The notes: a model not told the origin generated them from the letters alone. A DNA stretch of 24,000 nucleotides from Myxococcales bacterium (GCA_043747615.1 JAYTOU010000070.1:1-24000), one strand, 5' to 3'; positions 1 to 14,907 are shown, counted from the stretch's first letter. Translations and numbers: made by a program.

Positions 1-21
1 TTCAATTCCCGTTGGGGTCAC
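1..21 (+). repeat. Left copy of a 21-bp direct repeat (candidate att core, within the tRNA 3' end)
   Basis: ttcaattcccgttggggtcac is identical to 11438-11458. The match could extend left of the window. Confidence 0.7.
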
Positions 22-23
22 CA
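1..23 (+). tRNA. 3' end of a tRNA gene; the 5' part and anticodon lie outside the window, so the isotype is undetermined
   Basis: 1-23 parse as TTCAATT (T-loop), CCCGT (T-stem 3' strand), TGGGGTC (acceptor 3' strand), A (discriminator), CCA. Segment lengths match a canonical tRNA 3' half. Confidence 0.55.
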
Positions 24-28
24 TTTCT

Positions 29-60
29 ACTCGGAAAAAGAAGCGGTTTCGTGAGTTTTT
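29..60 (+). terminator. Possible intrinsic terminator after the tRNA
   Basis: Imperfect hairpin ACTCGGAAA (29-37) / TTTCGTGAGT (47-56), with one wobble and one bulge, running into a T5 tract (56-60). Judged by eye only. Confidence 0.3.
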
Positions 61-63
61 GAC

Positions 64-701
64 TCAGCTCACCGCCTGGTGTCCCAAAGATGTCCCAACG
101 GGCGCATCAAGGGCTGCCATGAACTCCCGTCCGCCACCGGGCGAGAGGTGCGAATAGCGCATCTTCATCTGGATCGTGGAGTGGCCTAGCCATTCCTGAA
201 CCTGACGGAGAGGCGCCCCCGACATCACGAGCTGACTGGCGAACGAGTGCCGGCAGTCGTGCCATCGGATCTTGCGTAGCCCTGCCCTGCGGCATGCGCC
301 CCAGAGCCTTTCGTGCAGCTGGTAGATGCTGAGGGGCTTCCCGTCCGGGTTGCAGAAGACGCGAGGGCCTCTCAGGTGCTTCAGCTCCTTTAACGCCCGT
401 TCTAGCTCGGGGGTCGTTGGAACCTTTCGATCCTTGCCGCTCTTCGTGGGCCCTACGATGCCCAGCGACGACGAACGGCGAATGATGACCTTCTTGTTAG
501 TGAAATCGAGATCGCCCCACTCAGGGCGATCTGCTCCCCTGCCCTGGCGCCCGTCCGGAACGCGAAGAGCAAGAGCGCTCGTTCCTCGATGTTGCGCGCC
601 GCACTGATCGCCAAGGCCGACTCTTCGCTGTTGAAGAAGTCCGTCTTGGAGTCCGGGGAGTGGGAGATCCTCACGGCGGTGCCGGCCTTTCCGAAACTGA
701 A
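64..701 (-). pseudogene. Tyrosine recombinase (phage-type integrase), N-terminally truncated and frameshifted
   Basis: One minus frame reads EWGDLDFTNKKVII...RWHDCRHSFASQLVMSGAPLRQVQEWLGHSTIQMKMRYSHLSPGG...HQAVS, with stop at 64-66. It carries the HxxR box and the catalytic Tyr context. The upstream part (DFFNSEESALAISAARNIEERALLLFAFRTGARAGEQIAL, with the Arg-I motif) is in another frame, switching near 520-527. Homology stops near 690-705, where MFS coding begins, so the N-terminal core-binding domain is absent. Confidence 0.8.
78..98 (+). repeat. Two direct TGTCCCAA motifs 11 bp apart (candidate recombinase arm-type sites)
   Basis: TGTCCCAA at 80-87 and 91-98, inside the integrase 3' coding end and about 60 bp from the att core. 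Confidence 0.35.
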
Positions 702-2180
702 GGTGCCGAGCAAGAGTTTCACCTCGCCGCGCGCGCCGCCATCCTGTCGTTCATCGTCGTGTTCGGCGTCACCAAAGCGCTCACGAACTACCTCGCGGGC
801 CGGCTCTCGGATGCGTATGGGCGCAAGGTAATCTTGGTCGGCGGCTGGCTCGTGGCGTGCCCGGTGCCGTTTCTCCTCATGTGGGCGCCCTCGTGGAGCT
901 GGGTACTCTTCGCGAACGTGCTGCTCGGCATGAGCCAAGGGCTCACGTGGTCCACGACGGTCATCATGAAGATCGACCTCGCGGGGCCGCAGAAGCGCGG
1001 GCTTGCGATGGGCCTGAACGAGTTCGCCGGTTACTTCGCCGTGGCGATGTCCGCGCTCGCGACCGGGACCATTGCCTCGACGTTCGGCCTTCGCCCGCAG
1101 CCGTTCTATTTGGGCGTCGTCTTCGTCACGTTCGGTCTCTTGCTGTCCCTCGTCCTCGTGCGCGAGACGAAGCACCACGTCCACCACGAGGCGAAGCTCG
1201 AAGGAGCCTTGCCACCAGGCGGCGTGCCTTCGCAGCGGCAAGTTTTCGCGCTTACCTCGGTGCGCGACAAGAACCTGTCGAGCGTGAGCCAGGCAGGGCT
1301 CGTCAACAACCTGAACGACGGCATGGCGTGGGGACTTTTCCCGATCTTCTTCGCCGCCTCCGGCATGAGCCTCGCTCAGATCGGGTGGCTCGCCGCGATC
1401 TATCCCGGCGTGTGGGGAATGGGGCAGCTCTTCACTGGAGCGCTCTCCGACAAGATCGGACGCAAGTGGCTCATCGTGACGGGGATGTGGGTACAGGCGA
1501 TCGGCATCGTCGTGACGGTGCTCTCCAAGATGTTCTTGGACTTCGCCGTGGGCGGTGTGCTCCTCGGCCTGGGGACCGCGATGGTGTACCCGACGCTGCT
1601 CGCCGCGATTGGCGATGTCGCTCACCCAACGTGGCGCGCGTCGACGGTCGGCGTGTACCGGCTCTGGCGCGATCTCGGTTACGCGATCGGCGCTCTGCTC
1701 GCCGGTGTCGTCGCCGATGCGCTCGGGCTCCGCGCCGCGATCTGGGCCATCGCTGCGCTCACCTTCGGCTCGGGACTCGTGGCGGCCTTCCGTATGAAAG
1801 AGACGTTGGGGGCACGGCGGACGGGCGCGAAGCTCGTGCCCGAGCCAGCTTGTATCACGGTGGATGATCTGGACTCGCTCATGGGGAAGCGTGAGGCTGT
1901 GTTCGTCGTCGACGTGCGCTCCCCCGAGGAGTTTGCCGCCGCCCATGTGTCGAGCGCGACGAACATCCCGCTGCAGACGCTCGAAGCGAATGCAGGCACT
2001 CTCCCGCTCGACGCGCTCGTGGTCACGGTTTGCGGCAAGGGTGGCGGGCGGTCCGAGAGCGCCGCCAAGTTGCTCCGCCAACGCGGTTTTCAAACAGCGC
2101 TATCGCTATGCGGCGGGACGAACGCCTGGATGACGGCGCATAGCGAGAAAACGACTGGTCTTCTAACGACGCCACCATGA
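660..2180 (+). CDS. MFS transporter fused to a C-terminal rhodanese domain; appears to lack the first transmembrane helix (5'-truncated)
   Basis: Motif A ([10 protein letters not shown]) follows the first visible TM helix, so that helix is TM2; I count 11 TM segments. The C-terminal ~120 aa are rhodanese-like with the active loop CGKGGGR. Recognisable MFS sequence begins around 705 ([16 protein letters not shown]). The GTG at 660 is only the first in-frame start, and it overlaps integrase remnant sequence. Confidence 0.75.
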
Positions 2181-3192
2181 TCTACCTCGACTACAACGCC
2201 ACGACGCCGCTGCTCCCCGAGGTCATCGCCGCGATGGATCCGTATTTGCGCGAGCATTTCGGCAATCCATCGAGCAGTCATGTCTACGGACAGCGGGCGC
2301 GCGGGGCGATCGATGTCGCGCGGTCTCAAGTCGCGGAGCTCCTCGGCTGCGAGCCCGACGAGGTGATCTTCACGTCGGGCGGGACCGAAGCTAACAACCT
2401 CGCGATTCGCGGGGTCGCCGAAGCGAGCGAAGGGAAGCGCCACATCGTCACCTCGACCATCGAGCACCCGGCGACGGCGGCCCCGTGATCGTGCACGCGA
2501 ACAACGAGACCGGGACGATGCAGCCCATCGCCGAGCTCGCCGGTATCGCACGCGAGCGTGGCTGTCTGGTCCACACGGATGCCGCGCAGTCGGTTGGCAA
2601 GGTGCGGACGAAGGTGCGCGAGCTTGGCGTAGACCTGCTCTCCGTCGCCGGGCACAAACTCTACGCGCCGAAGGGTGTCGGTGCGCTGTACGTACGCAGG
2701 GGAACCCCGCTGCGACCGTTCGTTCTTGGAGCCGGGCACGAGCGCGGTCTGCGGCCGGGCACCGAGAACGTGGCTTCGATCGTCGCTCTTGGAGTCGCCT
2801 GCGAGCTTGCCGGGAAGCGTCTCTCCGTATCGGGCGACGCCGTACGCGCTCTCCGCGATCGACTCTGGGCTCGCCTCCTTGCAGTCGTCCCTGGGCTCGC
2901 GTTGAACGGGCACGAGACCGAGCGACTGCCGAACACGTTGAATGTGCGTTTTCCCGGAGTGACCGGGAGCGCGGTGCTCGGCTCGGCGCCCGAGGTTGCC
3001 GCTTCGACGGGCTCGGCGTGCCACGAGGGCGGTCGCGAGAGGGCTTCGTCGGTGTTGCTCGAGATGGGGCTGCGGCCTGATGAAGCCCTCGGATCCGTCC
3101 GTCTCTCTTTGGGGGTGGCGACGACGACGCAGGACGTGGACGACGCTGCCGACGTGCTCACGCGGGGATGGCGAGCATTGGGATCATCCTAA
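2177..3192 (+). pseudogene. NifS/IscS-family cysteine desulfurase or selenocysteine lyase, disrupted by an internal deletion plus frameshift
   Basis: ORF 2177-2488 (YLDYNATTP...[13 protein letters not shown]...TSTIEHPA) and ORF 2485-3192 (VHANNETGT...SVAGHKLYAPKG with the PLP Lys...STGSACHEG with the active Cys) are in different frames. Compared with E. coli IscS recalled from memory, roughly 40 residues between EH(K/P)A and HxNNE are missing, at about 2470-2490. The ATG at 2177 overlaps the MFS stop (ATGA). Confidence 0.75.
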
Positions 3193-3223
3193 TGCGATGA
3201 GTGGACGGCACGTGGATCGTCGC

Positions 3224-4480
3224 TCACTTGCGCAGCGCGCACGTACGAAAGCCGGCCAAGACGTCCCGACGATCCGGTGGGTAGAAGTTGCGCCAGGTAT
3301 TCCGGAGCAGCCGCGCGCGCGTCGCCCAACAACCGCCGCGCAGCACCTTGTGGGGCGTCGCGAACCACGGCTCCGAGTACTCCCGGTAAGGATCGACGAT
3401 GAAGCCCTGATAAGGTCCGAAATCAGTCGCCGTCCACTCCCACGTGTTGCCGATCATCTGTCGGCAGCCGAACGCGCTGTCTCCGGCGGCAAACGCGCCG
3501 ACGTCCACGGGCCCACCGCAGCGGCCATCCAGGTTCGCGTTCGCTTCGGACGGCACGGCCTCACCCCACGGGAAAGGGCGCTTTTCGTCCGTCGACGCAG
3601 CGAGCTCCCACTCCGCCTCCGTCGGCAGTCGGCGCTGTGCCCAACGACAATAGGCTTCCGCCTCGAACCAACACACGTGCACGATCGGCTGGTGCGGCGG
3701 CAGCGGCTCGCGCTTGTCGTAACGGCGCACGTCGAAACCGCCGTCGCCGAGCGGACGCCAGTACACGGGATGGTGTGCGCCGTTTCGCGTGCGCCAGTTC
3801 CACCCGGCATCCGTCCACAGCTCACGCCGAGCGTAGCCCCGTGCCTGGACAAACTTCAGGAACTCCTCGTTGGTGACGGCCGCGCGCGCGATTCGAAACG
3901 TCGGTACGTCGACCGGATGCGCCCACTTCTCGTTGTCGAATACGAACGATTCGCGAGGGGTCGCACCGAGCTGGTACCGGCAACCCCGCACCTCGACGTC
4001 GCCCGGAAGCGCCCCTCCGGCGACGGCGAGCGTAGTGACACCCGCGTGCACGAATGTCGGTGCCGGGTAGGCGAGGGTCTGGCGCGTGTATGTCAAGGCC
4101 TCGTCGTGCATGTCCTCGTGGAACAGCGCGAGTCGATGAAAATAGGGATCTTCAACGTCTCGGTCCGTCTCGCAGCATCGTTCGAAGACCTCGGCCATGT
4201 ACGCGAGGGTGGCCTGACGATCTGGAAGCGTCAGGTCCCAGCGCGTGTCGTGCGGGACGCGAGCGGAGTCGTAGAGCGCGTCCCCATCCGAGCGGATCGG
4301 CGACACACCGCGCGCATGCCGCAGCGCCCATTGTTCTTGGAACCAGGCAACGTGCCCGAGCTCCCAGCGGAGCGGATTGACGATCGCCAGACGGGGCCCG
4401 AGCCATTGCTCGTCGGTGAGGTCGAGCGCCAGGCCAAGCGTCCGCGCCCGCGAGTCCTTCAGGTCATCGATAATTCCCAT
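3224..4480 (-). CDS. senA: EgtB-like sulfoxide/selenoxide synthase (DinB-like plus FGE-sulfatase-type domains); candidate selenoneine synthase SenA
   Basis: N-terminal DinB-like part carries the three-His iron site (WELGHVAWFQE; FHEDMHDE). The C-terminal part is FGE-sulfatase-like (GNTWEWT, RGGCWAT). The SenA call rests on context with SenB-like and SelD genes. I prefer the ATG at 4480 (MGIIDDL) over the GTG at 4507, which would leave 5 bp to the senB start. Confidence 0.75.
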   Translation of the reverse strand: MGIIDDLKDSRARTLGLALDLTDEQWLGPRLAIVNPLRWELGHVAWFQEQWALRHARGVSPIRSDGDALYDSARVPHDTRWDLTLPDRQATLAYMAEVFERCCETDRDVEDPYFHRLALFHEDMHDEALTYTRQTLAYPAPTFVHAGVTTLAVAGGALPGDVEVRGCRYQLGATPRESFVFDNEKWAHPVDVPTFRIARAAVTNEEFLKFVQARGYARRELWTDAGWNWRTRNGAHHPVYWRPLGDGGFDVRRYDKREPLPPHQPIVHVCWFEAEAYCRWAQRRLPTEAEWELAASTDEKRPFPWGEAVPSEANANLDGRCGGPVDVGAFAAGDSAFGCRQMIGNTWEWTATDFGPYQGFIVDPYREYSEPWFATPHKVLRGGCWATRARLLRNTWRNFYPPDRRDVLAGFRTCALRK

Positions 4481-4512
4481 GCGACGCTCTCGCAATCTAC
4501 ACTCCACCGCGC

Positions 4513-5514
4513 ATGAATGTCGTCTTCGTATGCAAGGCCCCGCGGGGCTCGCGCCTGGGGAACCGCATCACCGCGCTTCGCTGGAAGAAGCTGGTGGAGG
4601 AGCTCGGACACCGCGTGGTGATCACCTCGTCCCTCCCCCGCGGCCCGTACGACGTCCTCGTCGCACTGCATGCCCGTCTCGCGGCGGGCGCCGTCGCGTG
4701 GTCGCGCGCGAACCACGCCTCGCGCCCCATCGTCGTCGCCTTGACCGGAACGGACCTCTATCGCGACATTCACCACGACGCCGAGGCGAAGGAATCGCTC
4801 GCGCTCGCGGATCGTCTCATCGTCTTGCACGAGCTTGCGCCTCTCGACGTCCCAAGGCCCTTCCGAAGCAAGACGCGCGTCATTCGTCAATCGGCGCCGC
4901 CCGCGCCACGCCAAACGTCTGGCGGCGCAAAAGAGCGCGACGCCTTCGAGGTCGCATTCGTCGCCCACCTGCGCGCCGAGAAGGATCCCATGCGCGTTGC
5001 CGCCGCCGTTCGCTTGCTGCCGGCGGCGTCGCGCGTGCGCGTTCGGCATGTCGGCCGCGCGCTCAGCGAAGAACTGGACCGGCAGGCAACGAAGGAGACG
5101 AAAACGAACGCGCGGTACGCTTGGCTCGGCGAGGTCTCCCCGGCGCGCGCCCGCCACCTGATCGCGCGGTCGCACGTGCTCGTCCTCACGAGCATCATGG
5201 AGGGCGGGGCGAACGTCCTCGGCGAGGCAATCGTCGCCGGAACACCGCCGATCACGTCGCGCATCCCCGCCGCCGTCGCGGCGCTCGGCGCGAAGTACCC
5301 TGGTTTTTTCCCGGTTGGCGACACGCGAGCGCTCGCGCGCATGCTGTCGCGCGCGGAACGCGAACCTGCGTTCCTCGCCGAGCTACGGCGGCAGACCCGC
5401 GCCCGCCGCCATCTCTTCACGGCGAAGGCGGAGAGAAGCGCATGGCGTTCGCTGCTCGAAGAGCTCGCGCCGCCCGCTCGGGCGCGACGCGGCGAACCTC
5501 ACCCGATAGGATGA
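4513..5514 (+). CDS. senB: GT-B-type glycosyltransferase; candidate selenosugar synthase SenB
   Basis: 333 aa with a C-terminal GT4-like nucleotide-sugar binding stretch (LTSIMEGGANVLGEAIVAGTPPITSRIP). It is divergent from and adjacent to the EgtB-like gene, with SelD nearby. Assignment is by context and fold-level resemblance; no search was run. Confidence 0.65.
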   Translation: MNVVFVCKAPRGSRLGNRITALRWKKLVEELGHRVVITSSLPRGPYDVLVALHARLAAGAVAWSRANHASRPIVVALTGTDLYRDIHHDAEAKESLALADRLIVLHELAPLDVPRPFRSKTRVIRQSAPPAPRQTSGGAKERDAFEVAFVAHLRAEKDPMRVAAAVRLLPAASRVRVRHVGRALSEELDRQATKETKTNARYAWLGEVSPARARHLIARSHVLVLTSIMEGGANVLGEAIVAGTPPITSRIPAAVAALGAKYPGFFPVGDTRALARMLSRAEREPAFLAELRRQTRARRHLFTAKAERSAWRSLLEELAPPARARRGEPHPIG

Positions 5515-5518
5515 TGAG

Positions 5519-6898
5519 ATGAGCAAGCACTACGACGCAATCGTCATCGGCACAGGTCAGGCAGGTCCGTCGCTCGCCGTACGTCTGGCAAGCGCGGGAC
5601 GAAAGACCGCGATCCTCGAGCGAAAGCGGTTCGGCGGCACATGCGTCAACGTCGGGTGCATCCCCAGCAAGACCTTGATCGCCAGCGCGCGCACCGCTCA
5701 TGTCGCCAGGCGCGCCGCGGACTACGGCGTGATCGTCGAAGGCGGGGTCACTGTCGACATGAAACGCGTGAAGGCGCGCAAGGACGCTGTGGTCCAGCGG
5801 TCGAACGAGGGCGTCACGCGCTGGCTCCGGAATACGGCGAACCTCACGGTGATCGAGGGGCACGGCCGATTCGAAGGCCCCCACGTCATCCGCGTGAACG
5901 ACGACGTCCTCGAGGCCCCTCAGGTCTTCATCAACGTCGGTGCGCGCCCGATGGTGCCCGACCTTCCGGGGCTCGACGGGGTGCCGTTTCTCACGAGCTC
6001 CTCGATCATGGATGTCGACTTCGTCCCCGAGCATCTGATCATCATCGGAGGCAGCTACATCGGCCTCGAGTTTGCTCAGATGTATCGCCGCTTCGGCAGT
6101 CGAGTGACGGTGATCGAGAAGGGACCGCGGATCGCGGCGCGCGAGGACGAGGACGTTTCAACCGAGATCAAGAGTATTCTCGAGGCCGAAGAGATCGCGT
6201 TCAAGTTGAACGCGCAGTGCTTGAAGTTCGGCCGGCGCGGAGACGGGGTGGTCGTGTCGGTGAGCTGCGACGGAACGCTCGACGAGATCGCGGGCTCGCA
6301 TCTCCTCGTAGCCGTTGGGCGGGTGCCAAACACCGCCGACCTTGGGCTCGACGCCGCGGACGTCGCCGTGGATGCGCACGGCTTCGTCGTCGTCGACGAC
6401 GAGCTCCGCACGAGCGTCCCCGGGGTATGGGCCCTCGGAGACGCGAACGGTCGCGGCGCGTTCACGCACACGTCTTACAACGACTATGAGATCGTCGCCG
6501 CGAACTTGCTCGATGGTGGCTCACGCCGCGTGAGTGATCGCATCCCGGCCTACGCGCTCTTCGTCGACCCGCCGCTCGGCCGCGCAGGGCTGACCGAGCG
6601 CGACGTGCGCGCCTCCGGCCAGAAAGCGCTGATCGGGAAGATGATGATGGCGCGCGTCGGTCGGGCGCAGGAGCGCGGCGAGACTCTGGGCTTCATGAAA
6701 GTGATCGTCGACGCAGAGAGCCGCAAGATCCTGGGCGCGTCCCTACTCGGGATCGAAGCGGACGAGGTCATCCACGCGCTCCTCGACGTGATGTACGCTG
6801 GCGGCACCTGCGACCTCATCACGCGGGCAATGCACATCCATCCGACGGTCTCGGAGCTGATCCCGACCCTACTCGGCGATCTGAAGCCGCTGGAGTGA
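5519..6898 (+). CDS. Class I FAD-dependent pyridine nucleotide-disulfide oxidoreductase (mercuric/glutathione/lipoamide reductase-like)
   Basis: GTGQAG dinucleotide-binding motif, redox-active GGTCVNVGCIPSK, second Rossmann motif IIGGSYIGLEFA, and C-terminal HPTVSE His-Glu dyad. It has no C-terminal Cys pair and no N-terminal metal-binding domain, so it is not a bona fide MerA. It starts 4 nt after the senB stop, with AGGA 7 nt upstream. Confidence 0.85.
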   Translation: MSKHYDAIVIGTGQAGPSLAVRLASAGRKTAILERKRFGGTCVNVGCIPSKTLIASARTAHVARRAADYGVIVEGGVTVDMKRVKARKDAVVQRSNEGVTRWLRNTANLTVIEGHGRFEGPHVIRVNDDVLEAPQVFINVGARPMVPDLPGLDGVPFLTSSSIMDVDFVPEHLIIIGGSYIGLEFAQMYRRFGSRVTVIEKGPRIAAREDEDVSTEIKSILEAEEIAFKLNAQCLKFGRRGDGVVVSVSCDGTLDEIAGSHLLVAVGRVPNTADLGLDAADVAVDAHGFVVVDDELRTSVPGVWALGDANGRGAFTHTSYNDYEIVAANLLDGGSRRVSDRIPAYALFVDPPLGRAGLTERDVRASGQKALIGKMMMARVGRAQERGETLGFMKVIVDAESRKILGASLLGIEADEVIHALLDVMYAGGTCDLITRAMHIHPTVSELIPTLLGDLKPLE

Positions 6899-6906
6899 TC
6901 GAAATT

Positions 6907-7950
6907 TCAGCGATCGACCACGTGGATGTGGCCGACGCGCCCGGCGGCGAGCGTTCCGATGATCGCCGCGCAGGGTGTTCCGCGGGAGCGCAGCTCGCCA
7001 ATGAGCTTGTCCGCCTCGTCGGGCGAGACGGCGATCAGCAAACCGCCTGAAGTCTGAGCATCGCTGAGGACGAGCTGCGACTCCTTGTCGATCCCGGTCG
7101 CGTACTCGACCGAGTCGCTCAGGAAGCGCCAGTTTGCGTGGGTGCCCCCCGGCGCGATCCCTTCGCGGACATAGGTCCAGGCCGCGTCGATCACGGGCAC
7201 GTCCTCGAGGCGCACGGTCGCGCTGCATCCGCTCGCCCTGACGATGTTGCGCAGGTGGCCGAGGAGACCGAAACCGGTGATGTCGGTGCAGGCGTGCACG
7301 GACACCGTGGCCATCGCCTCTGCTGCCGCGCGGTTCAGCATGCTCATGAGACGGATCGCCTCGCCGATGGCGTGCGCAGCATCGCGATCTTGCTTTGCCG
7401 CGGTGGTCACGATTCCAATGCCGATCGGCTTCGTGAGGACGAGGACGTCACCCGGAAGACCACCGGCGTTCGAGGCGATCTTCTTGGGATGCACCATGCC
7501 GGTCACTGCGAGCCCGTAGATGGGTTCGTCGGTCTTGATCGTGTGACCACCGACGATGTCGATCCCGGCCTCCCGTGCCTTCTCCGCGCCGCCGCGCAAA
7601 ATCTCGCCGAGCACCGACACGTCGAGCTCGGATTCCGGGAAGCCGACGAGGTTGAGCGCGGCGATGGGCCAGCCGCCCATGGCGTAAACGTCGCTGAGCG
7701 CGTTCGCCGCGGCCACTGCCCCGAACTCGTACGGATCGTCCACGACGGGCGTGAAGAAATCCGTGGTCAAGACGAGAGCTCGCTCGTCATCGATGCGATA
7801 GACCGCGGCGTCATCGCCGGTCGCGCTCCCGACGAGCACGTTCGGATCGGTGACGGGCGGTAGTCTGCTGAGCAGCGGAAAGAGGTAGCCGGGCGGATGT
7901 TTTGCGGCGCAACCAGCGCGCTTGGCAATCTGCGTGAGGCGAACGGACAT
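6907..7950 (-). CDS. selD: Selenide, water dikinase (selenophosphate synthetase), Cys-type; SenC role in a sen cluster
   Basis: N-terminal glycine-rich loop AGCAAK, with the Cys encoded by TGC rather than TGA. AIR-synthase-like core (DDAAVY, DFFTP, GGHTI, TDITGFGLLGH). AGGAGA Shine-Dalgarno sequence 5-6 nt upstream of the ATG. Confidence 0.9.
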   Translation of the reverse strand: MSVRLTQIAKRAGCAAKHPPGYLFPLLSRLPPVTDPNVLVGSATGDDAAVYRIDDERALVLTTDFFTPVVDDPYEFGAVAAANALSDVYAMGGWPIAALNLVGFPESELDVSVLGEILRGGAEKAREAGIDIVGGHTIKTDEPIYGLAVTGMVHPKKIASNAGGLPGDVLVLTKPIGIGIVTTAAKQDRDAAHAIGEAIRLMSMLNRAAAEAMATVSVHACTDITGFGLLGHLRNIVRASGCSATVRLEDVPVIDAAWTYVREGIAPGGTHANWRFLSDSVEYATGIDKESQLVLSDAQTSGGLLIAVSPDEADKLIGELRSRGTPCAAIIGTLAAGRVGHIHVVDR

Positions 7951-7977
7951 CGCATTCTCCTGTGGGTGATCAGTAAG

Positions 7978-9018
7978 TCATGCCATGGACGCGAGGCCAG
8001 CAGCGGTCGCTACGAGCCAGACGCCAAGGGCCAAGGCCACGGCGACGCGAGGCCGTGACTCGCGTGCGAGGACGAAGAGAGAGGGCAGGTTCACGATCGG
8101 CCCCGCGACCACGAACGCAACGGCGACGCCGATCGGCGCGCCCGCGGCGAGCAGCAGGAGCGCGACCGGGACTTCGAAGAACGTGGGCAGAGCAACGAGC
8201 ATTCCGATGAGAGCGACCACGGTGATCGCGAAGACCGTACCTCCACGCGTGAGCATGGCGACGTGCGGAAGAAGAAGGCCTGAAACGAGCACGCCGGCGA
8301 TGATGAGCGGCACGGTCACGACGGTGAGGTACCCAACGCTCCTCGCGAAGCGGACGAGCAGGGCGCCGAGCGTCATGTCCTCGTCGGCATCGACCTCGCA
8401 CGCGACGCTGCGCGCGGGTGACACGTCTTTCTCCATGGCCCGGCCGATGCCCGCAGAGAGCCCGAGAACGATGACGAGCGCCGCCACGACGCGAACCGCA
8501 GCGACCCGCACGGGGAGGAGCGCGAAGCTCAACACGATGGCGGCGATGTTCAGGCCGGGCGACGCCAACATGACTGCGAGTGAAGGACCGAGGCGCGCAC
8601 CGCGCTCGTAGAGGCCCGTGAAGACCGGGGTGACACAGCAACAGCACAACATGAGCGGCGCGCCTGCGAGCGCCCCCATGATCGTCGGCCGCCCTCCGCG
8701 TGCCCCGAGCCAGCGCTTCACCCATGACGAGGGAACCGCCGCGCGAACCGCTGCGCCGACGAGGATCCCGAAGACGAGCGCTGGCCAGATTTTACCGAAG
8801 TAGAACAGCGTCGTTGCCACGACGCCTCCGTCAACGAGCGCCGACGTTGAAACGCCCAGCTTTCCGGACTCACGTACGCGCCCGAGCACGCGCAGCGAGC
8901 CGCCCCATTTGTAATAAAAGAGTGCCGACACGATCATCGCGAGGATGAAAGCGCCGCCGAATTGCGTGCGCGCGGAGCCTCCGGATTTGCCCGCCATTGC
9001 AGCCGAGGTCGTCGTCAT
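7978..9018 (-). CDS. Polytopic permease of the DUF318/ArsP-type predicted-permease family with a CCCC motif
   Basis: About 10 hydrophobic helices in two halves, split by an acidic loop (EVDADEDM). The motif GAPLMLCCCCVTPVF sits where family members carry a vicinal Cys pair before a Pro. It ends 27 bp upstream of the selD start on the same strand. Start is uncertain: ATG 9018, ATG 8997 or TTG 9054. Confidence 0.7.
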   Translation of the reverse strand: MTTTSAAMAGKSGGSARTQFGGAFILAMIVSALFYYKWGGSLRVLGRVRESGKLGVSTSALVDGGVVATTLFYFGKIWPALVFGILVGAAVRAAVPSSWVKRWLGARGGRPTIMGALAGAPLMLCCCCVTPVFTGLYERGARLGPSLAVMLASPGLNIAAIVLSFALLPVRVAAVRVVAALVIVLGLSAGIGRAMEKDVSPARSVACEVDADEDMTLGALLVRFARSVGYLTVVTVPLIIAGVLVSGLLLPHVAMLTRGGTVFAITVVALIGMLVALPTFFEVPVALLLLAAGAPIGVAVAFVVAGPIVNLPSLFVLARESRPRVAVALALGVWLVATAAGLASMA

Positions 9019-9103
9019 CACCGGAAGATGAGCTTGTCTCGCTTCGCGACGCAACCGCTGTCTGGCGGGCTCGCTCCGATTCGGCCGCGCTCGGGCGAGC
9101 GCG

Positions 9104-10048
9104 TTAGACCGCGCGCGACGGCTGCATCCAGGGCTTCGAAAGGTATCGGTCCCATGAGTCGGGCAATAGCGTCACGACAGGACCAGTAATGCCGTCCCGC
9201 GCTGCGATCCTGAGCGCGACAACGACCGCGGTCCCCGCCGAGCCGCCGACGAAGAGCCCCTCTTCGCGAACGAGGCGATGGACCATCGCGAAGCTATCGG
9301 TGTCAGAAACGCTTTCGGCGCTGTCGATCACGCTGCGGTCGAGGATCGCGGGTGGCTTGCTCGTGCCGATTCCTTCGACCTCATAGGCGGCGTCGGGGCC
9401 AACGATCCCATCCGCGGCCCACCGAGCGAGACCAGAGCCGACGGGGTCCGCAAGGACGATTTGGACGTTCAGTACGTGACGTTTCAGGAACCGGCCAACC
9501 CCGGTGATGGTGCCCCCCGTGCCGGCTCCAGCGACGAACGCTCCGATCCGAGCGCCCGTCTGTTCGAGGAGCTCGGGGCCCGTGGTCTCCTCGTGGGCGC
9601 GGACGTTCACGGGATTGCGGAACTGGTCGGTGAGGAACCACCCCTCTTCATCTGCGAGGCGACGGGCAACGTTCTGGAAATTCTCAGGACTATCCGGCGG
9701 CGCGTTCGGAGTGATCACGACGCGCGCGCCGAGGGCCGTAAGCGCAGCTCGTTTGTCGACGGACATTTTCTCCGGCAGTACGCAAACGAGCTTGTAGCCT
9801 CGCACGGCGGCGACGAGCGCGAGCCCCATTCCCGTGTTTCCGGCCGTCGCCTCGATCAGGGTCGCGCCGGGCTTCAGGAGATTGCGTCGTTCGGCATCGT
9901 CGACGATGGCGAGGGCGATCCGGTCTTTCACGCTTCCTCCCGGATTTAGATGCTCGCACTTCACGAGGATCGAAACCGGGAGGCCATGCCCGATGTGTCG
10001 CAGCCGCACGAGCGGCGTGTGCCCAATGTGATCGAGAATCGTCGACAT
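9104..10048 (-). CDS. PLP-dependent cysteine synthase / cystathionine beta-synthase family enzyme (CysK/CysM-like)
   Basis: IGHTPLVRL; NPGGSVKDR with the PLP Lys; GNTGMGLA; GAGTGGTITG phosphate-binding loop. It lies first on the minus strand before the permease and selD. The ATG at 10048 is preferred; the ORF extends to a TTG at 10096. Confidence 0.85.
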   Translation of the reverse strand: MSTILDHIGHTPLVRLRHIGHGLPVSILVKCEHLNPGGSVKDRIALAIVDDAERRNLLKPGATLIEATAGNTGMGLALVAAVRGYKLVCVLPEKMSVDKRAALTALGARVVITPNAPPDSPENFQNVARRLADEEGWFLTDQFRNPVNVRAHEETTGPELLEQTGARIGAFVAGAGTGGTITGVGRFLKRHVLNVQIVLADPVGSGLARWAADGIVGPDAAYEVEGIGTSKPPAILDRSVIDSAESVSDTDSFAMVHRLVREEGLFVGGSAGTAVVVALRIAARDGITGPVVTLLPDSWDRYLSKPWMQPSRAV

Positions 10049-10294
10049 TGGGCGGAGCTTAGCTTGCCGCGACGCGACTGGAGGGCTCGTCGTCAAGGAG
10101 GCGTCGCAGAAAAGCGCTATGGAGAAGGACCATCGCGACCATCCCGAAATAACGCGACGGGGTCCTCTGGAAATCCGCGTCGTTCTGTACCTGCTCGCGG
10201 TTCCTTGGGAGGGCCGTCGCGACGGCGTCGCCGTCTACCCTCGAACGTTGGAATGCCGATCCCGTTTACCGTCCCCAATGGTATGTGACGAGCA

Positions 10295-11270
10295 ATGGCG
10301 TCGCGCACGATCCGCCCGAACCTCGCGAAGCTCTCGGGCTCGGTGGCCTACCGCGCGATCCTCGGCGAGGTCAGCGCGCTGCTCGAAAGCGCACGGCGAG
10401 CGGCCGCCCGCGCGGTGAACACCGTCATGACGACCACGTACTGGGAAATCGGTCGCCGGCTCGTTGAGCACGAGCAGCGCGGGAGGGCGCGGGCCGCGTA
10501 CGGCGCTGCGCTCCTGCGCCGGCTATCGAAGGATCTGGCAGGACGCTTCGGTCGCGGATTCTCGGAGCGCAACCTCGAACAGATGCAGCGCTTCTACCTG
10601 ACGTGGCCCATTTCGCAGACGCTGTCTTCGAAATTCCAGGAAGGACCGGCACTCGCGCCGCGATCCAAGATTTCGCAGACGCTGTCTGCGAAGTCCCAAG
10701 ACCACATTGCGCCAAGCTTCCCTCTGCCGTGGTCCCACTATGTTCGCCTCCTCGCTGTCAGGAACGAGAACGCCCGGGCGTTCTACGAGTACGAGGCTCT
10801 CCGCGGTGGTTGGACGGCCCGCCAGCTCGACCGACATCTCAAAGCTCGAGACGTTCCTACTTGAGCTCGGCGGCGATTTCACCTTCGTTGGTCGCCAGCG
10901 CCGATTGCGCGTCGGAGATGAGTGGTTTCGGATCGACCTGCTTTTCTTTCACCGGCGCCTGCGATGCCTCGTGGTGATCGACCTCAAGCTGGGGAAGTTC
11001 AGCCACGCCGACGCGGGCCAGATGCACCTATACTTGAACTACGCCCGGGAGCACTGGATGGTGTCCGGCGAGAATCCTCCGGTCGGGATCATCCTCTGCG
11101 CCGAGAAGGACGAGGCGGTCGTCCGATACGCGCTCGAAGGCTTACCCAACAAGGTGCTGGCTGCGGCGTATCGGACAACGTTGCCTGCAGAAGAAGTTCT
11201 CGCCGCCCAGCTTCGAAAATCCGCGAGGCTCCTGACAACCCGGACTCCACGCCGCTCGACACCCCGCTGA
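10295..11270 (+). pseudogene. DUF1016/YhcG-type PDDEXK nuclease, split by an internal deletion and frameshift
   Basis: ORF 10295-10864 has the N-terminal domain (YWEIGRRLVEHEQ, GFSERNLEQMQRFY, WSHYVRLL). A second frame up to 11270 has the nuclease core (FLLELGGDFTFVGRQRRLRVGDEWFRIDLLFFHRRLRCLVVIDLKLGKF). The junction is near 10830-10845. Tens of residues normally between the two parts appear to be missing. Confidence 0.7.
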
Positions 11271-12595: not shown

Positions 12596-12904
12596 GTGAC
12601 CTCGAAGCTGGATCGCCGCGCCGAGCAGCTGAGTGCCCTGGGCCACTCCGTTCGGCTCAAGATCCTCCGATTCGTCGTGCAAGCGGGCGTCGAAGGCTCC
12701 GCAGCGGGCGACATCCAGGCTCACGTCGAGCTGCCAGCGTCCACGTTGAGTCATCACCTGAAGCGGCTGGTCGACGCCGGGGTGCTCTCCACCCGATCCG
12801 AGGGAACCTTCCACTTCTACGCCGCCGACTACACCGCCCTCCGCGCTCTCACCGACTACCTTTGGGAAGACTGCTGCAAGCGCGGCAAGTCCGGCTGCTG
12901 CTGA
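12596..12904 (+). CDS. arsR: ArsR/SmtB-family metalloregulator with C-terminal cysteine pairs
   Basis: Winged-helix signature LSALGHSVRLKILRFV...ELPASTLSHHLKRLVDAGVL. It lacks the CVC site in helix 3 and has C-terminal CC-x6-CC (EDCCKRGKSGCC). The GTG at 12596 is the first possible start after in-frame stops. Confidence 0.85.
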   Translation: MTSKLDRRAEQLSALGHSVRLKILRFVVQAGVEGSAAGDIQAHVELPASTLSHHLKRLVDAGVLSTRSEGTFHFYAADYTALRALTDYLWEDCCKRGKSGCC

Positions 12905-12920
12905 GCAAAGCCTTTTTTTT
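12893..12920 (+). terminator. Possible weak terminator/attenuator between arsR and arsM
   Basis: GGCTGCT..AGC-AA-AGCC imperfect stem overlapping the arsR stop, followed by a T8 run (12913-12920). Judged by eye only. Confidence 0.3.
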
Positions 12921-12976
12921 GCGCTTAATGTTCGAGTATTTTGGAAGTAGTTAACCCCACACACGAGGAGTCGATC

Positions 12977-13894
12977 ATGAAGAACCCTAGCGTTCAAAAA
13001 TCCGAGAAGACCTGCTGCGCCCCAAGCTGCTGCGAGGGCGACAACGCCGCGGCGAAGGCCGAGACCGCAAAGGTCGACGACGCCGTTCGTGAGACGGTCA
13101 AGGAGCGCTACGGCCAGGCGGTCGCGGCAGTCATGAAAGGCTCGAAGCCTTCGTGCTGTGGGTCGTCTGCAGCGCCGGGCATCCGCGGCACGGACCCGAT
13201 CACGCGCAACCTCTACGACGCGGAGCAGGCGGGCGGCGTGCCCGATGACGCCTTGCTCGCCTCCTTCGGCTGCGGCAACCCCACCGCCCTCGCCAATCTG
13301 AACCCCGGCGAGACCGTGCTCGACCTCGGCTCAGGGGGCGGCATCGACGTGCTTCTGTCGGCCAAGCGGGTCGGCCCCACCGGCAAGGCGTACGGGCTCG
13401 ACATGACCGACGAGATGCTCGACCTCGCCATGAAGAACAAGGCGAAGGCGGGCGCGGCGAACGTGGAGTTCTTGAAAGGACACATCGAGGCAATCCCGCT
13501 ACCGGCCGCCTCGGTGGACGTGATCATCTCCAACTGCGTCATCAACCTCTCCACCGACAAGGACAAGGTGCTCGGCGAAGCCTTCCGCGTGCTGCGCTCG
13601 GGGGGTAGGTTCGCCGTCTCCGACATCGTGGTTCGCCGCGAGCTTCCCGAACCGGTGAGGAAGTCGATGGAGCTGTGGAGCGGGTGCATCGCAGGGGCGC
13701 TTCTGGAAAAGGAGTACGTCGCCAAGTTGAAGGCCGCCGGGTTCATCGACATCGAGGTCGAGCCGACCCGCATCTATACGAAGGAGGACACCGCGGAGAT
13801 GACGTCGTCCTGCTGCGGCGAAGAGGCCGAGACGGCCCTCGAGGCCCTGGACGGCGCCGTCATGAGCGCCTTCATCCGCGCGACGAAGCCATGA
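12977..13894 (+). CDS. arsM: Arsenite S-adenosylmethionine methyltransferase
   Basis: SAM motif [12 protein letters not shown]. Conserved Cys contexts FGCGNP, SNCVINL and WSGCIAGA, plus an N-terminal Cys-rich stretch (CCAPSCC, PSCCG). GAGGAG Shine-Dalgarno sequence upstream of the ATG at 12977. Confidence 0.9.
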
Positions 13895-14907
13895 GCACGC
13901 GCACCAAGGTCGGCATCAACGGGTTCGGCCGTATGGGTCGGCTCGCGCTTCGAGCGGCATGGCGTTGGCCCGACTTCGAGTTCGTCCACATCAACGAGCT
14001 GAAGGGCGGGCCCAAAGTCGGCGCGCATCTCCTCGCGTTCGACTCGGTGCACGGTCGATGGGACCAAGAGGTCGTCACCGCGGCGGACGCCATCGCCATC
14101 GCGGGGAAGGCCATCCCCTTCACCGGATACGCCACGCCGGCAGAGGTGCCGTGGAAGGAGCACGGGGTCGAGATCGTCCTCGAGTGCTCTGGGAAGTTCA
14201 GGACCCCGGCGCTCATCGCTCCCTACTTCGCGGTCGGAGTGAAGAAGGTCATCGTCGCCGCCCCCGTCAAGGAGGGCGCGCTCAACGTCGTCGTCGGGGT
14301 GAACGATCACCTCTACGACCCGGAGAAGCACCACTTGCTCACGGCGGCTTCCTGCACGACCAACTGCCTTGCTCCCGTGGTGAAGGTCATTCACGAGGGC
14401 ATCGGCATCCGCCACGGTGTGATCACCACCATCCACGACATGACGAACACCCAGACGGTCGTTGATGCGCCCCACGAGGATCTTCGGCGAGCACGGGCCA
14501 GCAGCCTCTCCCTCATTCCGACGAGCACCGGGTCGGCGACGGCGATCTCGTTGATCTACCCCGAGCTGAAGGGAAAGTTGAACGGCCTCGCCGTGCGGGT
14601 GCCCCTCTTGAATGCGTCGCTCACCGATTGCGTCTTCGAGGTCTCTCGGCCGACGACGACGGACGAAGTGAACGCGCTCCTCAAGACTGCCGCGGAGGGG
14701 CCGCTGAAGGGCATCCTGGGCTATGAAGAGCGCCCGCTGGTTTCGGTGGACTACAAGGACGATACGCGATCGGCGATCATCGACGCCCCATCGACCATGG
14801 TGGTGGACGACACGAGCGTGAAGATCCTCGCCTGGTATGACAACGAGATCGGCTACGTGCACCGCATGATGGAGCTCGCCCGCACGGTTGCCCAGAGCCT
14901 TCGGTGA
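13891..14907 (+). CDS. Glyceraldehyde-3-phosphate dehydrogenase (ars-operon type, partner of ArsJ)
   Basis: [12 protein letters not shown]-binding motif and active site SCTTNCLAP. The start overlaps the arsM stop (ATGA). Confidence 0.9.

What the first reader, a model, noticed from the sequence alone, without database searches (positions are those of the whole stretch)
3224..7950. Selenoneine-type (sen) biosynthetic core: EgtB-like SenA, glycosyltransferase SenB and an orphan Cys-type SelD
Seen: an EgtB-like DinB plus FGE-fold enzyme with an intact three-His iron site. A ~333-aa GT-B-like protein is divergently adjacent, and a selenophosphate synthetase lies 1.4 kb away. No selA, selB or 2-selenouridine synthase partner for SelD is in the window. 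Established: SelD plus a glycosyltransferase plus an EgtB homologue is the three-gene sen pathway reported in 2022 (selenophosphate, then selenosugar, then C-Se bond formation on hercynine to give selenoneine). Inference: this locus makes selenoneine or a related selenosugar-derived metabolite. The pathway itself is therefore already described. What is unusual here is that it is split over three transcription units with extra genes interleaved. No hercynine-forming histidine methyltransferase (EgtD) is present in the window.
Basis: partly seen in the sequence, partly recalled or inferred. Interest (0 to 1): 0.85.

Follow-up and report, generated by a model that had tools for sequence, protein, structure and literature searches.

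The report
Myxobacterial selenoneine (sen) gene cluster
This is an ordinary, intact copy of the already described three-gene pathway that makes the selenium antioxidant selenoneine; its one new feature is a flavin reductase gene that keeps turning up beside these genes in its myxobacterial relatives.

Summary
The gene at 3224-4480(-) passes NCBI's SenA equivalog model. It carries the full published SenA active-site motif (NEH / HR / HxH / Y-Y-N-F-Y-R), not the OvsA or EgtB motif. The gene at 4513-5514(+) passes the SenB equivalog model and keeps the catalytic Lys and Glu residues. The gene at 6907-7950(-) is a Cys-type SelD.

One trap: the closest solved structure by score is OvsA (ovoselenol pathway). 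However, the three residues that decide histidine versus hercynine are the SenA ones.

Only 22 of 80 related genome loci have egtD (the histidine methyltransferase that makes hercynine) beside senA, and the authors of the pathway note that most sen clusters lack it. The divergent senA/senB layout with a roughly 30-bp spacer is the rule in Myxococcota.

The modestly new part is the FAD disulfide reductase co-transcribed with senB. Its close homologues sit next to selD-senB and next to egtD. A second lineage of the same enzyme class sits in the sen operons of other myxobacteria. I propose it is an accessory reductase of the pathway; this is untested.

Verdict: new member of a known kind, low-to-moderate interest.

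The parts
3224..4480 (-). senA: selenoneine synthase (non-haem-iron selenoxide synthase), 418 aa. The ORF could extend to the GTG at 4507.
   Evidence: NF041186 SenA 488.6 bits, above the 420 cut-off. DinB_2 + FGE-sulfatase domains. Composite motif N44 E49 H52 / H86 R89 / H130 M133 H134 / Y374 Y377 N407 F408 Y409 R413 matches the published SenA criterion. The public gene call is 3224-4480.
4481..4512 (.). 32-bp divergent senA/senB spacer. It must hold or overlap both promoters.
   Evidence: The spacer is 28-33 bp in nine related myxobacterial loci, with a conserved central GAGTGTA / GAGTATGCT. Its -10-like reading is inference only; the consensus promoter scan found nothing.
4513..5514 (+). 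senB: selenosugar synthase (Se-glycosyltransferase, GT-B fold), 333 aa
   Evidence: TIGR04348 351.7 bits, above the 300 cut-off. E = 8e-52 to V. paradoxus SenB structures 8jjq/8fbx. The equivalents of N20, T23, H58, D86, R155, K158, E231 and E239 are conserved. V157 is replaced by E, and the EGGAHV motif reads EGGANV.
5519..6898 (+). Class-I FAD/NAD(P)H pyridine-nucleotide-disulfide oxidoreductase, 459 aa. It starts 4 bp after the senB stop codon and is the proposed accessory reductase.
   Evidence: NF004992 758.7 bits, above the 629 cut-off. Redox-active C42-VNVG-C47 and the HPTVSE dyad are present, with no C-terminal Cys pair. The closest structure is 6kgy. Homologues sit next to egtD (L087, 84% identity) and in a FADox-selD unit facing senB (L091, 75%).
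6907..7950 (-). selD (= senC): selenophosphate synthetase, Cys-type, 347 aa
   Evidence: TIGR00476 392 bits, above the 125 cut-off. E = 7e-75 to E. coli SelD 3u0o, with C14 and K17 and the Asp ligands aligned.
7978..9054 (-). ArsP_1-family permease with a CCCC motif in a membrane segment. It lies 27 bp upstream of selD on the same strand. The public gene call is 7978-8997.
   Evidence: PF03773 107.6 bits. Only weak NCBIfam hits (SO_0444, SaoE), both below cut-off. Homologues lie directly upstream of senA in L016, L034, L037, L067 and L076.
9104..10096 (-). CysK/CBS-like PLP enzyme, first gene of the putative cysK-like / permease / selD unit. The public gene call is 9104-10048.
   Evidence: PF00291 243.9 bits. 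It scores below the cut-off of every NCBIfam cysteine synthase or CBS model. Orthologues at 73-76% identity lie near sen genes in L001 and L002.
2177..3192 (+). nifS-like cysteine desulfurase, disrupted: a 115-nt internal deletion plus a frameshift leave two ORFs, 2177-2488 and 2485-3192.
   Evidence: The Pfam and NCBIfam hits cover profile positions 1-102 and 145-369 in different frames. DNA alignment to the intact L001 orthologue shows the 115-nt gap. The same split appears in both public assemblies.
660..2180 (+). MFS transporter fused to a C-terminal rhodanese domain, overlapping the nifS-like start by 4 bp
   Evidence: MFS_1 170 bits and Rhodanese 52.5 bits. An orthologue at 71% identity lies in the L001 sen neighbourhood, followed by an intact nifS and a cysK-like gene.

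Best explanation
The locus is a functional selenoneine (sen) biosynthetic cluster in an uncultured Polyangiaceae-like myxobacterium.

**Proposed pathway**
1. SelD (SenC) phosphorylates selenide to selenophosphate.
2. SenB transfers a sugar, most likely GlcNAc, from a UDP-sugar onto selenophosphate and cleaves the Se-P bond with its conserved Lys. This gives a 1-seleno-sugar.
3. SenA uses its three-His iron centre and O2 to join the selenosugar to C2 of hercynine. The resulting selenoxide eliminates the sugar and yields selenoneine.
4. Hercynine must come from an egtD located elsewhere in the genome.

**What is shown:** family membership and conservation of every published specificity and catalytic residue.

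**What is inferred:** the chemistry, taken from the characterised V. paradoxus enzymes.

**Additional inferences**
- The FAD disulfide reductase co-transcribed with senB is an accessory enzyme of the pathway. It may keep the selenosugar or selenoneine in the selenol state, or it may reduce oxidised selenium to selenide for SelD.
- The Cys-rich ArsP_1 permease upstream of selD moves a selenium species across the membrane.
For: - SenA, SenB and SelD equivalog models all score above their curated cut-offs.
- The SenA composite motif matches at all 16 specified positions of the published criterion xNEH--HRHxHYYN(F/Y)(F/Y)R. The same alignment returns the published motifs for the three reference enzymes, which controls the method.
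- Y377, N407 and F408 are the three residues whose introduction into OvsA was shown to switch it to hercynine and C2 selenylation.
- H86 and Y409 replace the EgtB residues Arg and Asp, as reported for all SenA proteins.
- SenB keeps the Se-P-cleaving Lys and the sugar-binding N, T and E residues.
- SelD keeps its Cys and Lys.
- In 80 related genome loci, 65 have senB next to the SenA homologue and 22 have egtD next to it.
- An NJ tree places the query inside a large SenA-like clade, with V. paradoxus SenA as sister and OvsA outside.
- For the reductase: there are 4 bp between the senB stop and its start. Group-A homologues are linked to egtD (L087) and to selD-senB (L091). Group-B reductases, 41-46% identical to group A, lie directly after senA or senB in L004, L005, L007 and L011.
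Against: - No egtD lies in the window or in the contig stretch I could inspect, about 10 kb left of the window start to about 6 kb past its right end. The hercynine supply is therefore unproven.
- By raw score the nearest solved structure is OvsA (306 and 296 bits), not V. paradoxus SenA (229 bits). The protein also keeps a roughly 37-aa segment that V. paradoxus SenA lacks.
- No member of this 'long' SenA clade was shown to be characterised in the papers I read.
- SenB has E where V. paradoxus has V157, the residue that contacts the N-acetyl group, and N for H in the EGGAHV motif. The sugar donor may therefore differ.
- The NJ tree is crude and has no support values.
- Close homologues of the reductase (78% and 73% identity) also occur in contexts unrelated to sen, so its link may be lineage-specific.
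- Neighbouring pseudogenes (nifS-like, yhcG) show that the region is under some decay.
Confidence: 0.8

Rival explanations
1. It is an ovoselenol-type (ovs) cluster. The NHISS (non-haem-iron sulfoxide/selenoxide synthase; here the SenA homologue) would act on free histidine at C5, which would explain why no egtD is nearby.
For: The best PDB match is OvsA from Halomonas utahensis, at 296-306 bits against 229 for V. paradoxus SenA. Most ovs-bearing organisms lack egtD. No egtD lies in about 40 kb of contig.
Against: The OvsA-defining residues M401, Q430 and A431 are Y377, N407 and F408 here, which is the SenA set. The query scores higher against the OvsA-YNF mutant than against wild type. No OvsM-like methyltransferase is adjacent: the only methyltransferase in the window passes the arsenite methyltransferase model and sits in an arsR-arsM-gapdh-arsJ unit. 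The 228 OvsA sequences the authors collected came almost exclusively from aquatic gammaproteobacteria. Homologues with the same motif have egtD adjacent in 22 of 80 loci.
Confidence: 0.04
2. The cluster is intact but makes something other than selenoneine in this organism: either only the selenosugar, or a C-Se adduct on another acceptor. This would apply if hercynine is not available, or if the altered SenB sugar pocket changes the intermediate.
For: egtD was not found in the accessible contig. SenB differs at V157 (E here) and in the EGGAHV motif (EGGANV here). An ovsA mutant accumulates SeGlcNAc, so selenosugars can exist on their own.
Against: The hercynine-binding residues are fully conserved, which would be unexpected without the substrate. 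The authors report that hercynine is normally drawn from a distant egt locus. A close relative's contig carries egtD beside the same reductase subfamily, and egtD homologues named as Polyangiaceae or Myxococcota are on record.
Confidence: 0.1
3. It is a sulfur-type ergothioneine EgtB that merely happens to sit next to an unrelated GT4 glycosyltransferase and a SelD that serves selenocysteine or selenouridine synthesis.
For: The overall fold and domain architecture are shared with EgtB. The EgtB-I structure 4x8b scores 239 bits.
Against: The EgtB equivalog model scores below its cut-off, 317 against 360. The thiol-binding residues S/D/R/Q/W/D of EgtB-I are N/E/H/M/F/Y here. The glycosyltransferase passes the SenB equivalog model. 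The senA-senB pairing recurs in 65 of 80 loci across many phyla.
Confidence: 0.02
4. The locus is a decaying remnant in a metalloid-related island and is no longer expressed or functional.
For: Two neighbouring genes are disrupted: the nifS-like gene has a 115-nt deletion, and the DUF1016/YhcG nuclease gene is split.
Against: senA, senB, selD, the reductase, the permease and the cysK-like gene are all full-length, with every catalytic residue intact.
Confidence: 0.04

Closest known systems
sen cluster (senC/selD-senB-senA) of Variovorax paradoxus (selenoneine biosynthesis; bioRxiv 10.1101/2022.04.13.486033)
   Same: It has the same three enzyme families. All published specificity and catalytic residues are conserved, and all three genes are co-localised. 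egtD is not in the cluster, as in most sen clusters.
   Different: - senA and senB are divergent rather than part of a single compact three-gene cassette, and selD sits in a separate convergent unit.
- SenA keeps a roughly 37-aa segment (residues 316-352) that V. paradoxus SenA lacks, and lacks a 12-aa insertion that V. paradoxus SenA has. Identity is about 45% over the aligned columns.
- SenB has E for V157 and EGGANV for EGGAHV.
- Extra genes are present: a reductase, an ArsP_1 permease, a CysK-like enzyme and an MFS-rhodanese fusion.
ovs cluster (OvsA/OvsM + senB/senC) of Halomonas utahensis and Marinobacter (ovoselenol; PMC11030361)
   Same: OvsA is the highest-scoring solved structure (296-306 bits, about 44% identity). 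It shares the NEH/HR selenosugar-side motif and the 37-aa segment, and its pathway uses the same senB/senC selenosugar cassette.
   Different: The histidine-pocket residues are Y/N/F, not M/Q/A. There is no OvsM. The taxon is a myxobacterium, not an aquatic gammaproteobacterium.
EgtB-I of Mycolicibacterium thermoresistibile (ergothioneine sulfoxide synthase, PDB 4x8b)
   Same: It shares the DinB + FGE fold, the three-His iron site, the catalytic Tyr, the hercynine-binding Tyr and Asn, and the 37-aa segment.
   Different: The gamma-glutamylcysteine-binding residues (R87, D416 and others) are replaced by H86, Y409 and others. It scores below the EgtB model cut-off.
RclA / hypothiocyanous-acid reductase (MerA/Har) group of class-I flavoprotein disulfide reductases
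   Same: The sen-linked reductase has the same fold, the CxxxxC redox centre and the C-terminal His-Glu dyad. The best PDB hits are 6kgy/6kod (266 bits), which I recall, without checking here, to be E. coli RclA.
   Different: It scores far below the RclA cut-off (344 against 740) and the HOSCN-reductase cut-off (320 against 650). It belongs to the uncharacterised NF004992 family and has no MerA-type C-terminal Cys pair.

Membership tests
SenA (selenoneine synthase subfamily of non-haem-iron sulfoxide/selenoxide synthases) | N-terminal DinB domain plus C-terminal FGE-like domain | tested here: met
   PF12867 (residues 16-127) and PF03781 (residues 168-422).
SenA (selenoneine synthase subfamily of non-haem-iron sulfoxide/selenoxide synthases) | Three-His iron-binding triad and catalytic Tyr | tested here: met
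   H52, H130, H134 and Y374 align with the reference residues.
SenA (selenoneine synthase subfamily of non-haem-iron sulfoxide/selenoxide synthases) | Published 17-position composite motif xNEH--HRHxHYYN(F/Y)(F/Y)R (PMC11030361 methods) | tested here: met
   The query reads N E H - - H R H M H Y Y N F Y R. The two gap positions were confirmed against an EgtB-II-type sequence carrying the YY insertion. The control references gave their published motifs.
SenA (selenoneine synthase subfamily of non-haem-iron sulfoxide/selenoxide synthases) | Scores above the curated cut-off of the NCBIfam equivalog model NF041186 | tested here: met
   488.6 bits against a cut-off of 420. I did not test whether OvsA proteins would also pass this model.
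SenA (selenoneine synthase subfamily of non-haem-iron sulfoxide/selenoxide synthases) | Catalyses C2 selenylation of hercynine with a selenosugar | not testable with these tools
   This needs an enzyme assay or metabolite analysis.
OvsA (ovoselenol selenoxide synthase) | Histidine-pocket residues Met/Gln/Ala (M401, Q430, A431 of H. utahensis OvsA) | tested here: not met
   The query has Y377, N407 and F408.
OvsA (ovoselenol selenoxide synthase) | Co-occurring OvsM N-pi-methyltransferase | tested here: not met
   The only methyltransferase in the window passes the arsenite methyltransferase model NF008823 (351.8 bits against 263) and lies in an ars operon. Presence elsewhere in the genome is not testable.
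EgtB-I (ergothioneine sulfoxide synthase) | Composite motif xSDH--RRHQHYYNWDR and a score above the TIGR03440 cut-off | tested here: not met
   Six of the motif positions differ. The score is 317.2 bits against a cut-off of 360.
SenB (TIGR04348 Se-glycosyltransferase) | Scores above the equivalog cut-off; catalytic K158; sugar-binding N20, T23 and E231; UDP-binding E239 | tested here: met
   351.7 bits against 300. N17, T20, the K in 'RAEK', the E in 'EGGANV' and the E in 'GEAI' align with the V. paradoxus residues.
SenB (TIGR04348 Se-glycosyltransferase) | Conserved EGGAHV motif and V157 (contact to the N-acetyl group) | tested here: inconclusive
   The motif is EGGANV and V157 is E. The effect on sugar choice is unknown.
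SelD / SenC (selenophosphate synthetase) | AIRS N- and C-terminal domains, N-terminal Cys (or Sec) and Lys, and a score above the TIGR00476 cut-off | tested here: met
   392.3 bits against 125. C14 and K17 align with E. coli C17 and K20.
sen biosynthetic gene cluster (as defined by its discoverers) | Co-localised egtB-like, TIGR04348 and selD genes | tested here: met
   All three lie within 4.7 kb. The definition is quoted.
sen biosynthetic gene cluster (as defined by its discoverers) | A hercynine source (egtD) somewhere in the genome | not testable with these tools
   egtD is absent from the window and from the contig stretch I could inspect (about 10 kb left of the window to 6 kb right of it). 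The genome is an unbinned metagenome scaffold. The nearest genome in the species collection is only 72% identical for SenA.

The most novel reading that the evidence does not exclude
Myxobacterial sen clusters carry a fourth, so far undescribed component: a dedicated NAD(P)H-dependent flavoprotein disulfide/diselenide reductase.

Two separate lineages of this enzyme class have been recruited into sen or egt operons:
- Group A: after senB in this window, before selD in L091, and before egtD in L087.
- Group B: after senA or senB in L004, L005, L007 and L011.

The enzyme would either recycle oxidised selenoneine/ergothioneine or the selenosugar diselenide, or it would deliver selenide to SelD. 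Either role would make it the first enzyme assigned to redox cycling of these compounds or to selenium supply for the pathway. The Cys-rich ArsP_1 permease that recurs beside senA in several phyla would be the matching selenium transporter.
Probability: 0.35. Interest if true: 0.55.

Novelty: new member of a known kind. Interest (0 to 1): 0.3.

Why it matters
As a sen cluster it adds little. The pathway, its enzymes' structures and curated annotation models already exist, and hundreds to thousands of such clusters are on record.

It is useful in three smaller ways:

- It shows that the 'long' SenA form scores closer to OvsA than to the characterised SenA in pairwise and structure-database searches. 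Assignment therefore has to rest on the three pocket residues, not on the best hit.
- It extends sen clusters to Polyangiaceae-like myxobacteria, where they have a fixed divergent senA/senB layout.
- It yields a concrete, testable candidate for an open question about selenoneine: how cells keep it, or its selenosugar precursor, reduced, and how they feed selenide to SelD. The candidates are a recurrently linked flavoprotein disulfide reductase and a Cys-rich permease.

Tried and rejected
- **Promoter and terminator scan of 1-10400:** no promoter-like site, and fewer terminator-like sites than in shuffled sequence. It was uninformative for this 66% GC genome.
- **tRNA and Rfam scans:** nothing found.
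- **Hunt for egtD of the same organism.**
  - tblastn of an EgtD against the window was negative.
  - Walking along the 92.8-kb contig with window proteins covered its positions 20712-59901 and found no PF10017 gene.
  - A look-up with the histidine kinase at 22093-23643 failed, because no identical gene call is on record.
  - A database search with the EgtD from L087 found no homologue in the identity range expected for this organism. The candidate I then looked up came from an unrelated sample.
  - The question stays open.
- **Apparent tyrosine-recombinase remnant near 453-650(-):** not supported by Pfam, so I dropped it.
- **Supplement of the 2022 preprint,** searched for the family of its 'putative selenate transporter': nothing held as text.
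- **Literature searches** for a selenoneine or ergothioneine reductase, or for an oxidoreductase in sen clusters: nothing relevant.
- **ArsM-like methyltransferase at 12941-13894 as a possible OvsM:** rejected. It passes the arsenite methyltransferase model and sits between arsR and the ArsJ-associated GAPDH and arsJ.
- **Structure prediction:** not run, because sequence-level tests against solved structures were already decisive.

Full report
**What is in the sequence**

The window is 66% GC. It is the first 24 kb of a 60-kb metagenome scaffold, ena:ERZ28573532 BUSI22-1_SAMN19433718_METAG-scaffold_875. The same locus also lies on a 92.8-kb contig of a second assembly. The nearest genomes are Polyangiaceae and other Myxococcota MAGs; the best SenA match is 72% identical.

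The region named in the finding holds four intact genes:

| Coordinates | Gene | Key evidence |
|---|---|---|
| 3224-4480(-) | DinB + FGE-fold enzyme (senA) | |
| 4513-5514(+) | GT-B glycosyltransferase (senB) | |
| 5519-6898(+) | FAD pyridine-nucleotide-disulfide oxidoreductase, starting 4 bp after the glycosyltransferase stop | |
| 6907-7950(-) | selD | |

For senA the ORF runs to 4507, but homologues and the public gene call start at the ATG at 4480.

Curated NCBIfam equivalog models name three of them above their cut-offs:
- SenA NF041186: 488.6 bits against 420
- SenB TIGR04348: 351.7 bits against 300
- SelD TIGR00476: 392.3 bits against 125

The EgtB model stays below its cut-off (317 against 360).

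**The one real ambiguity: SenA or OvsA?**

A search of solved structures ranked OvsA first:
- OvsA (the histidine-C5 selenoxide synthase of the ovoselenol pathway): 306 and 296 bits
- EgtB-I: 239 bits
- Characterised V. paradoxus SenA: 229 bits, in two pieces

The split alignment has a simple cause. V. paradoxus SenA lacks a roughly 37-residue segment (query residues 316-352) that the query shares with OvsA and EgtB-I.

The authors of the ovoselenol paper classify these enzymes by a 17-position composite motif. They also showed that three substitutions (M401Y, Q430N, A431F) convert OvsA into a hercynine-using, C2-selenylating, SenA-like enzyme.

I aligned the query with 81 homologue ORFs from the 80 loci and three structure-derived references, then read out the motif positions:

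| Protein | Motif read |
|---|---|
| Query | N44 E49 H52 / (gap, gap) / H86 R89 / H130 M133 H134 / Y374 Y377 N407 F408 Y409 R413 |
| Published SenA criterion | xNEH--HRHxHYYN(F/Y)(F/Y)R |
| OvsA reference | ...YMQAYR |
| EgtB-I reference | SDH..RRHQHYYNWDR |
| V. paradoxus SenA reference | ...YYNFFR |

The query fits the SenA criterion. The three references reproduce their published motifs in the same alignment, which controls the method. Consistently, the query scores higher against the OvsA-YNF mutant than against wild-type OvsA.

A neighbour-joining tree places the query in a myxobacterial clade inside a large SenA-type clade. V. paradoxus SenA is sister to that clade and OvsA lies outside it. 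The tree is crude and has no support values.

**SenB and SelD**

Aligned to the V. paradoxus SenB structure, the query keeps these residues:
- N20 and T23, which are N17 and T20 in the query
- H58 and D86
- R155 and K158 (the Se-P-cleaving lysine)
- E231 and E239

Two differences may matter for sugar choice: V157 is Glu, and EGGAHV reads EGGANV.

SelD aligns end to end with E. coli SelD. Cys14 and Lys17 match Cys17 and Lys20, and the Asp ligands are conserved.

**Context from 80 related genome loci**

- senB is adjacent to the SenA homologue in 65 loci.
- selD lies within 10 kb in only about nine.
- egtD (PF10017) is adjacent in 22.

The absence of egtD from this window is real. It also holds for the inspected contig stretch, from about 10 kb left of the window start to about 6 kb past its right end. 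But it is normal, not unusual.

The divergent senA/senB arrangement with a 28-33 bp spacer is shared by all nine closest myxobacterial loci. In L001 and L091, selD is convergent with senB, as it is here. The 'split over three transcription units' layout is therefore the clade's standard.

**The interleaved and flanking genes**

*The reductase.* The gene after senB is a class-I flavoprotein disulfide reductase. It has C42-VNVG-C47 and the HPTVSE dyad, and no C-terminal Cys pair. It belongs to the uncharacterised family NF004992 (758.7 bits against 629). Its closest structures are 6kgy/6kod.

The family is broad: thousands of proteins are 71-75% identical. Two of its members that I inspected (78% and 73% identical) have unrelated neighbours.

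Within the myxobacterial relatives, however, it is linked to the pathway in three different arrangements:
- senB then reductase, in this window
- reductase then selD, convergent with senB, in L091 (75% identity)
- reductase then egtD, in L087 (84% identity)

A second lineage of the same enzyme class is 65-85% identical within itself and only 41-46% identical to the first. It lies directly after senA (L004, L005) or after senB (L007, L011), and within 3 kb in L015 and L053.

Linkage that survives rearrangement, together with recruitment of two lineages, argues for a functional tie. I found no paper describing such an enzyme.

*The selD unit.* Upstream of selD on the same strand lie two genes:
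- An ArsP_1 (PF03773) permease with a CCCC motif. Its homologues sit directly upstream of senA in five loci from other phyla.
- A CysK/CBS-like PLP enzyme that passes no specific model.

*The other side of senA.* Here lie an MFS-rhodanese fusion and a nifS-like gene. The nifS-like gene has lost 115 nt and its reading frame relative to the intact orthologue in L001.

In L001 the set is ArsR-rhodanese, MBL-fold protein, MFS-rhodanese, NifS, CysK-like, and it follows senA. That looks like a sulfur/selenium-trafficking module. It is shared only by the closest relatives, so plain synteny cannot be excluded.

**Mechanism**

*Shown:* family membership and intact catalytic and specificity residues.

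*Inferred from the characterised V. paradoxus enzymes:*
1. SelD makes selenophosphate.
2. SenB makes a 1-seleno-sugar and cleaves the Se-P bond.
3. SenA couples the selenosugar oxidatively to C2 of hercynine, and the selenoxide eliminates the sugar to give selenoneine.

*My own inference:* the reductase either keeps the selenol species reduced or supplies selenide, and the permease moves a selenium species.

**Verdict**

The locus is a new member of a known kind, one that standard annotation models already name. The features flagged as unusual are typical.

Interest is low to moderate (0.3). What interest there is comes from the candidate accessory reductase and permease, and from the practical warning that best-hit searches point to OvsA for this SenA clade.

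Noticed in passing
window 2177-3192 (+): The nifS-like cysteine desulfurase gene carries a 115-nt internal deletion relative to the intact orthologue in L001 (about 38 codons lost, plus a frameshift). This leaves ORFs 2177-2488 and 2485-3192, which overlap in GTGA. Both public assemblies of this locus show the same split.
   Followed up: yes
window 10295-11270 (+): A DUF1016_N / YhcG_C PD-(D/E)XK nuclease gene is split into two overlapping ORFs in different frames (10295-10864 and 10707/10806-11270). It is probably a frameshifted pseudogene, lying between the selenium genes and the arsenic genes.
   Followed up: partly
window 12596-16160 (+): A complete arsenic unit lies 2.5 kb from the cysK-like gene: arsR (12596-12904), arsenite methyltransferase arsM (12941-13894), ArsJ-associated GAPDH (13891-14907) and arsJ (14904-16160). 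The selenium and arsenic genes form one metalloid-related neighbourhood.
   Followed up: partly
window 4481-4512, and the senB/senA spacers of L001-L007, L011 and L015: The divergent senA/senB spacer is only 28-33 bp in all ten loci. It has a conserved central GAGTGTA / GAGTATGCT that reads as a -10-like hexamer in both directions. This implies very short or absent mRNA leaders, with -35 regions inside the opposite gene.
   Followed up: partly
L031, L040, L045, L061, L062, L065, L066, L069, L071, L072, L079, L080 (directly upstream of senA): A GH84 beta-N-acetylglucosaminidase (PF07555) lies immediately upstream of the SenA homologue in 12 loci (MAGs labelled Binatia, delta-/Proteobacteria, Syntrophobacterales and Thermodesulfobacteriota). 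An AmpG-like MFS follows senB in 9 loci. This may be an undescribed sugar-recycling or sugar-cleavage accessory of the sen pathway.
   Followed up: no
L008-L014, L018, L022, L025 (Methylomirabilota), around locus positions 8.8-13.6 kb: These loci have egtD, a SenA-motif NHISS, and in several cases an OpuA-type ABC transporter (ATPase plus a fused substrate-binding/permease protein), but no senB within 10 kb. Two of the SenA homologues have Thr instead of Asn at the hercynine-binding position.
   Followed up: no
L083 1-1951 (about 8-10 kb left of window position 1 on the 92.8-kb contig): Genes with cysD-like (PAPS_reduct) and cysN-like (GTP_EFTU) domains lie close to the selenium locus. If they encode sulfate adenylyltransferase, as the domains suggest, they could also activate selenate.
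   Followed up: no
L001 3595-5003: In the closest genome relative, an ArsR-rhodanese fusion regulator and an MBL-fold (Blh / persulfide-dioxygenase-like) protein lie between senA and the MFS-rhodanese / nifS / cysK-like genes. The window lacks both.
   Followed up: partly
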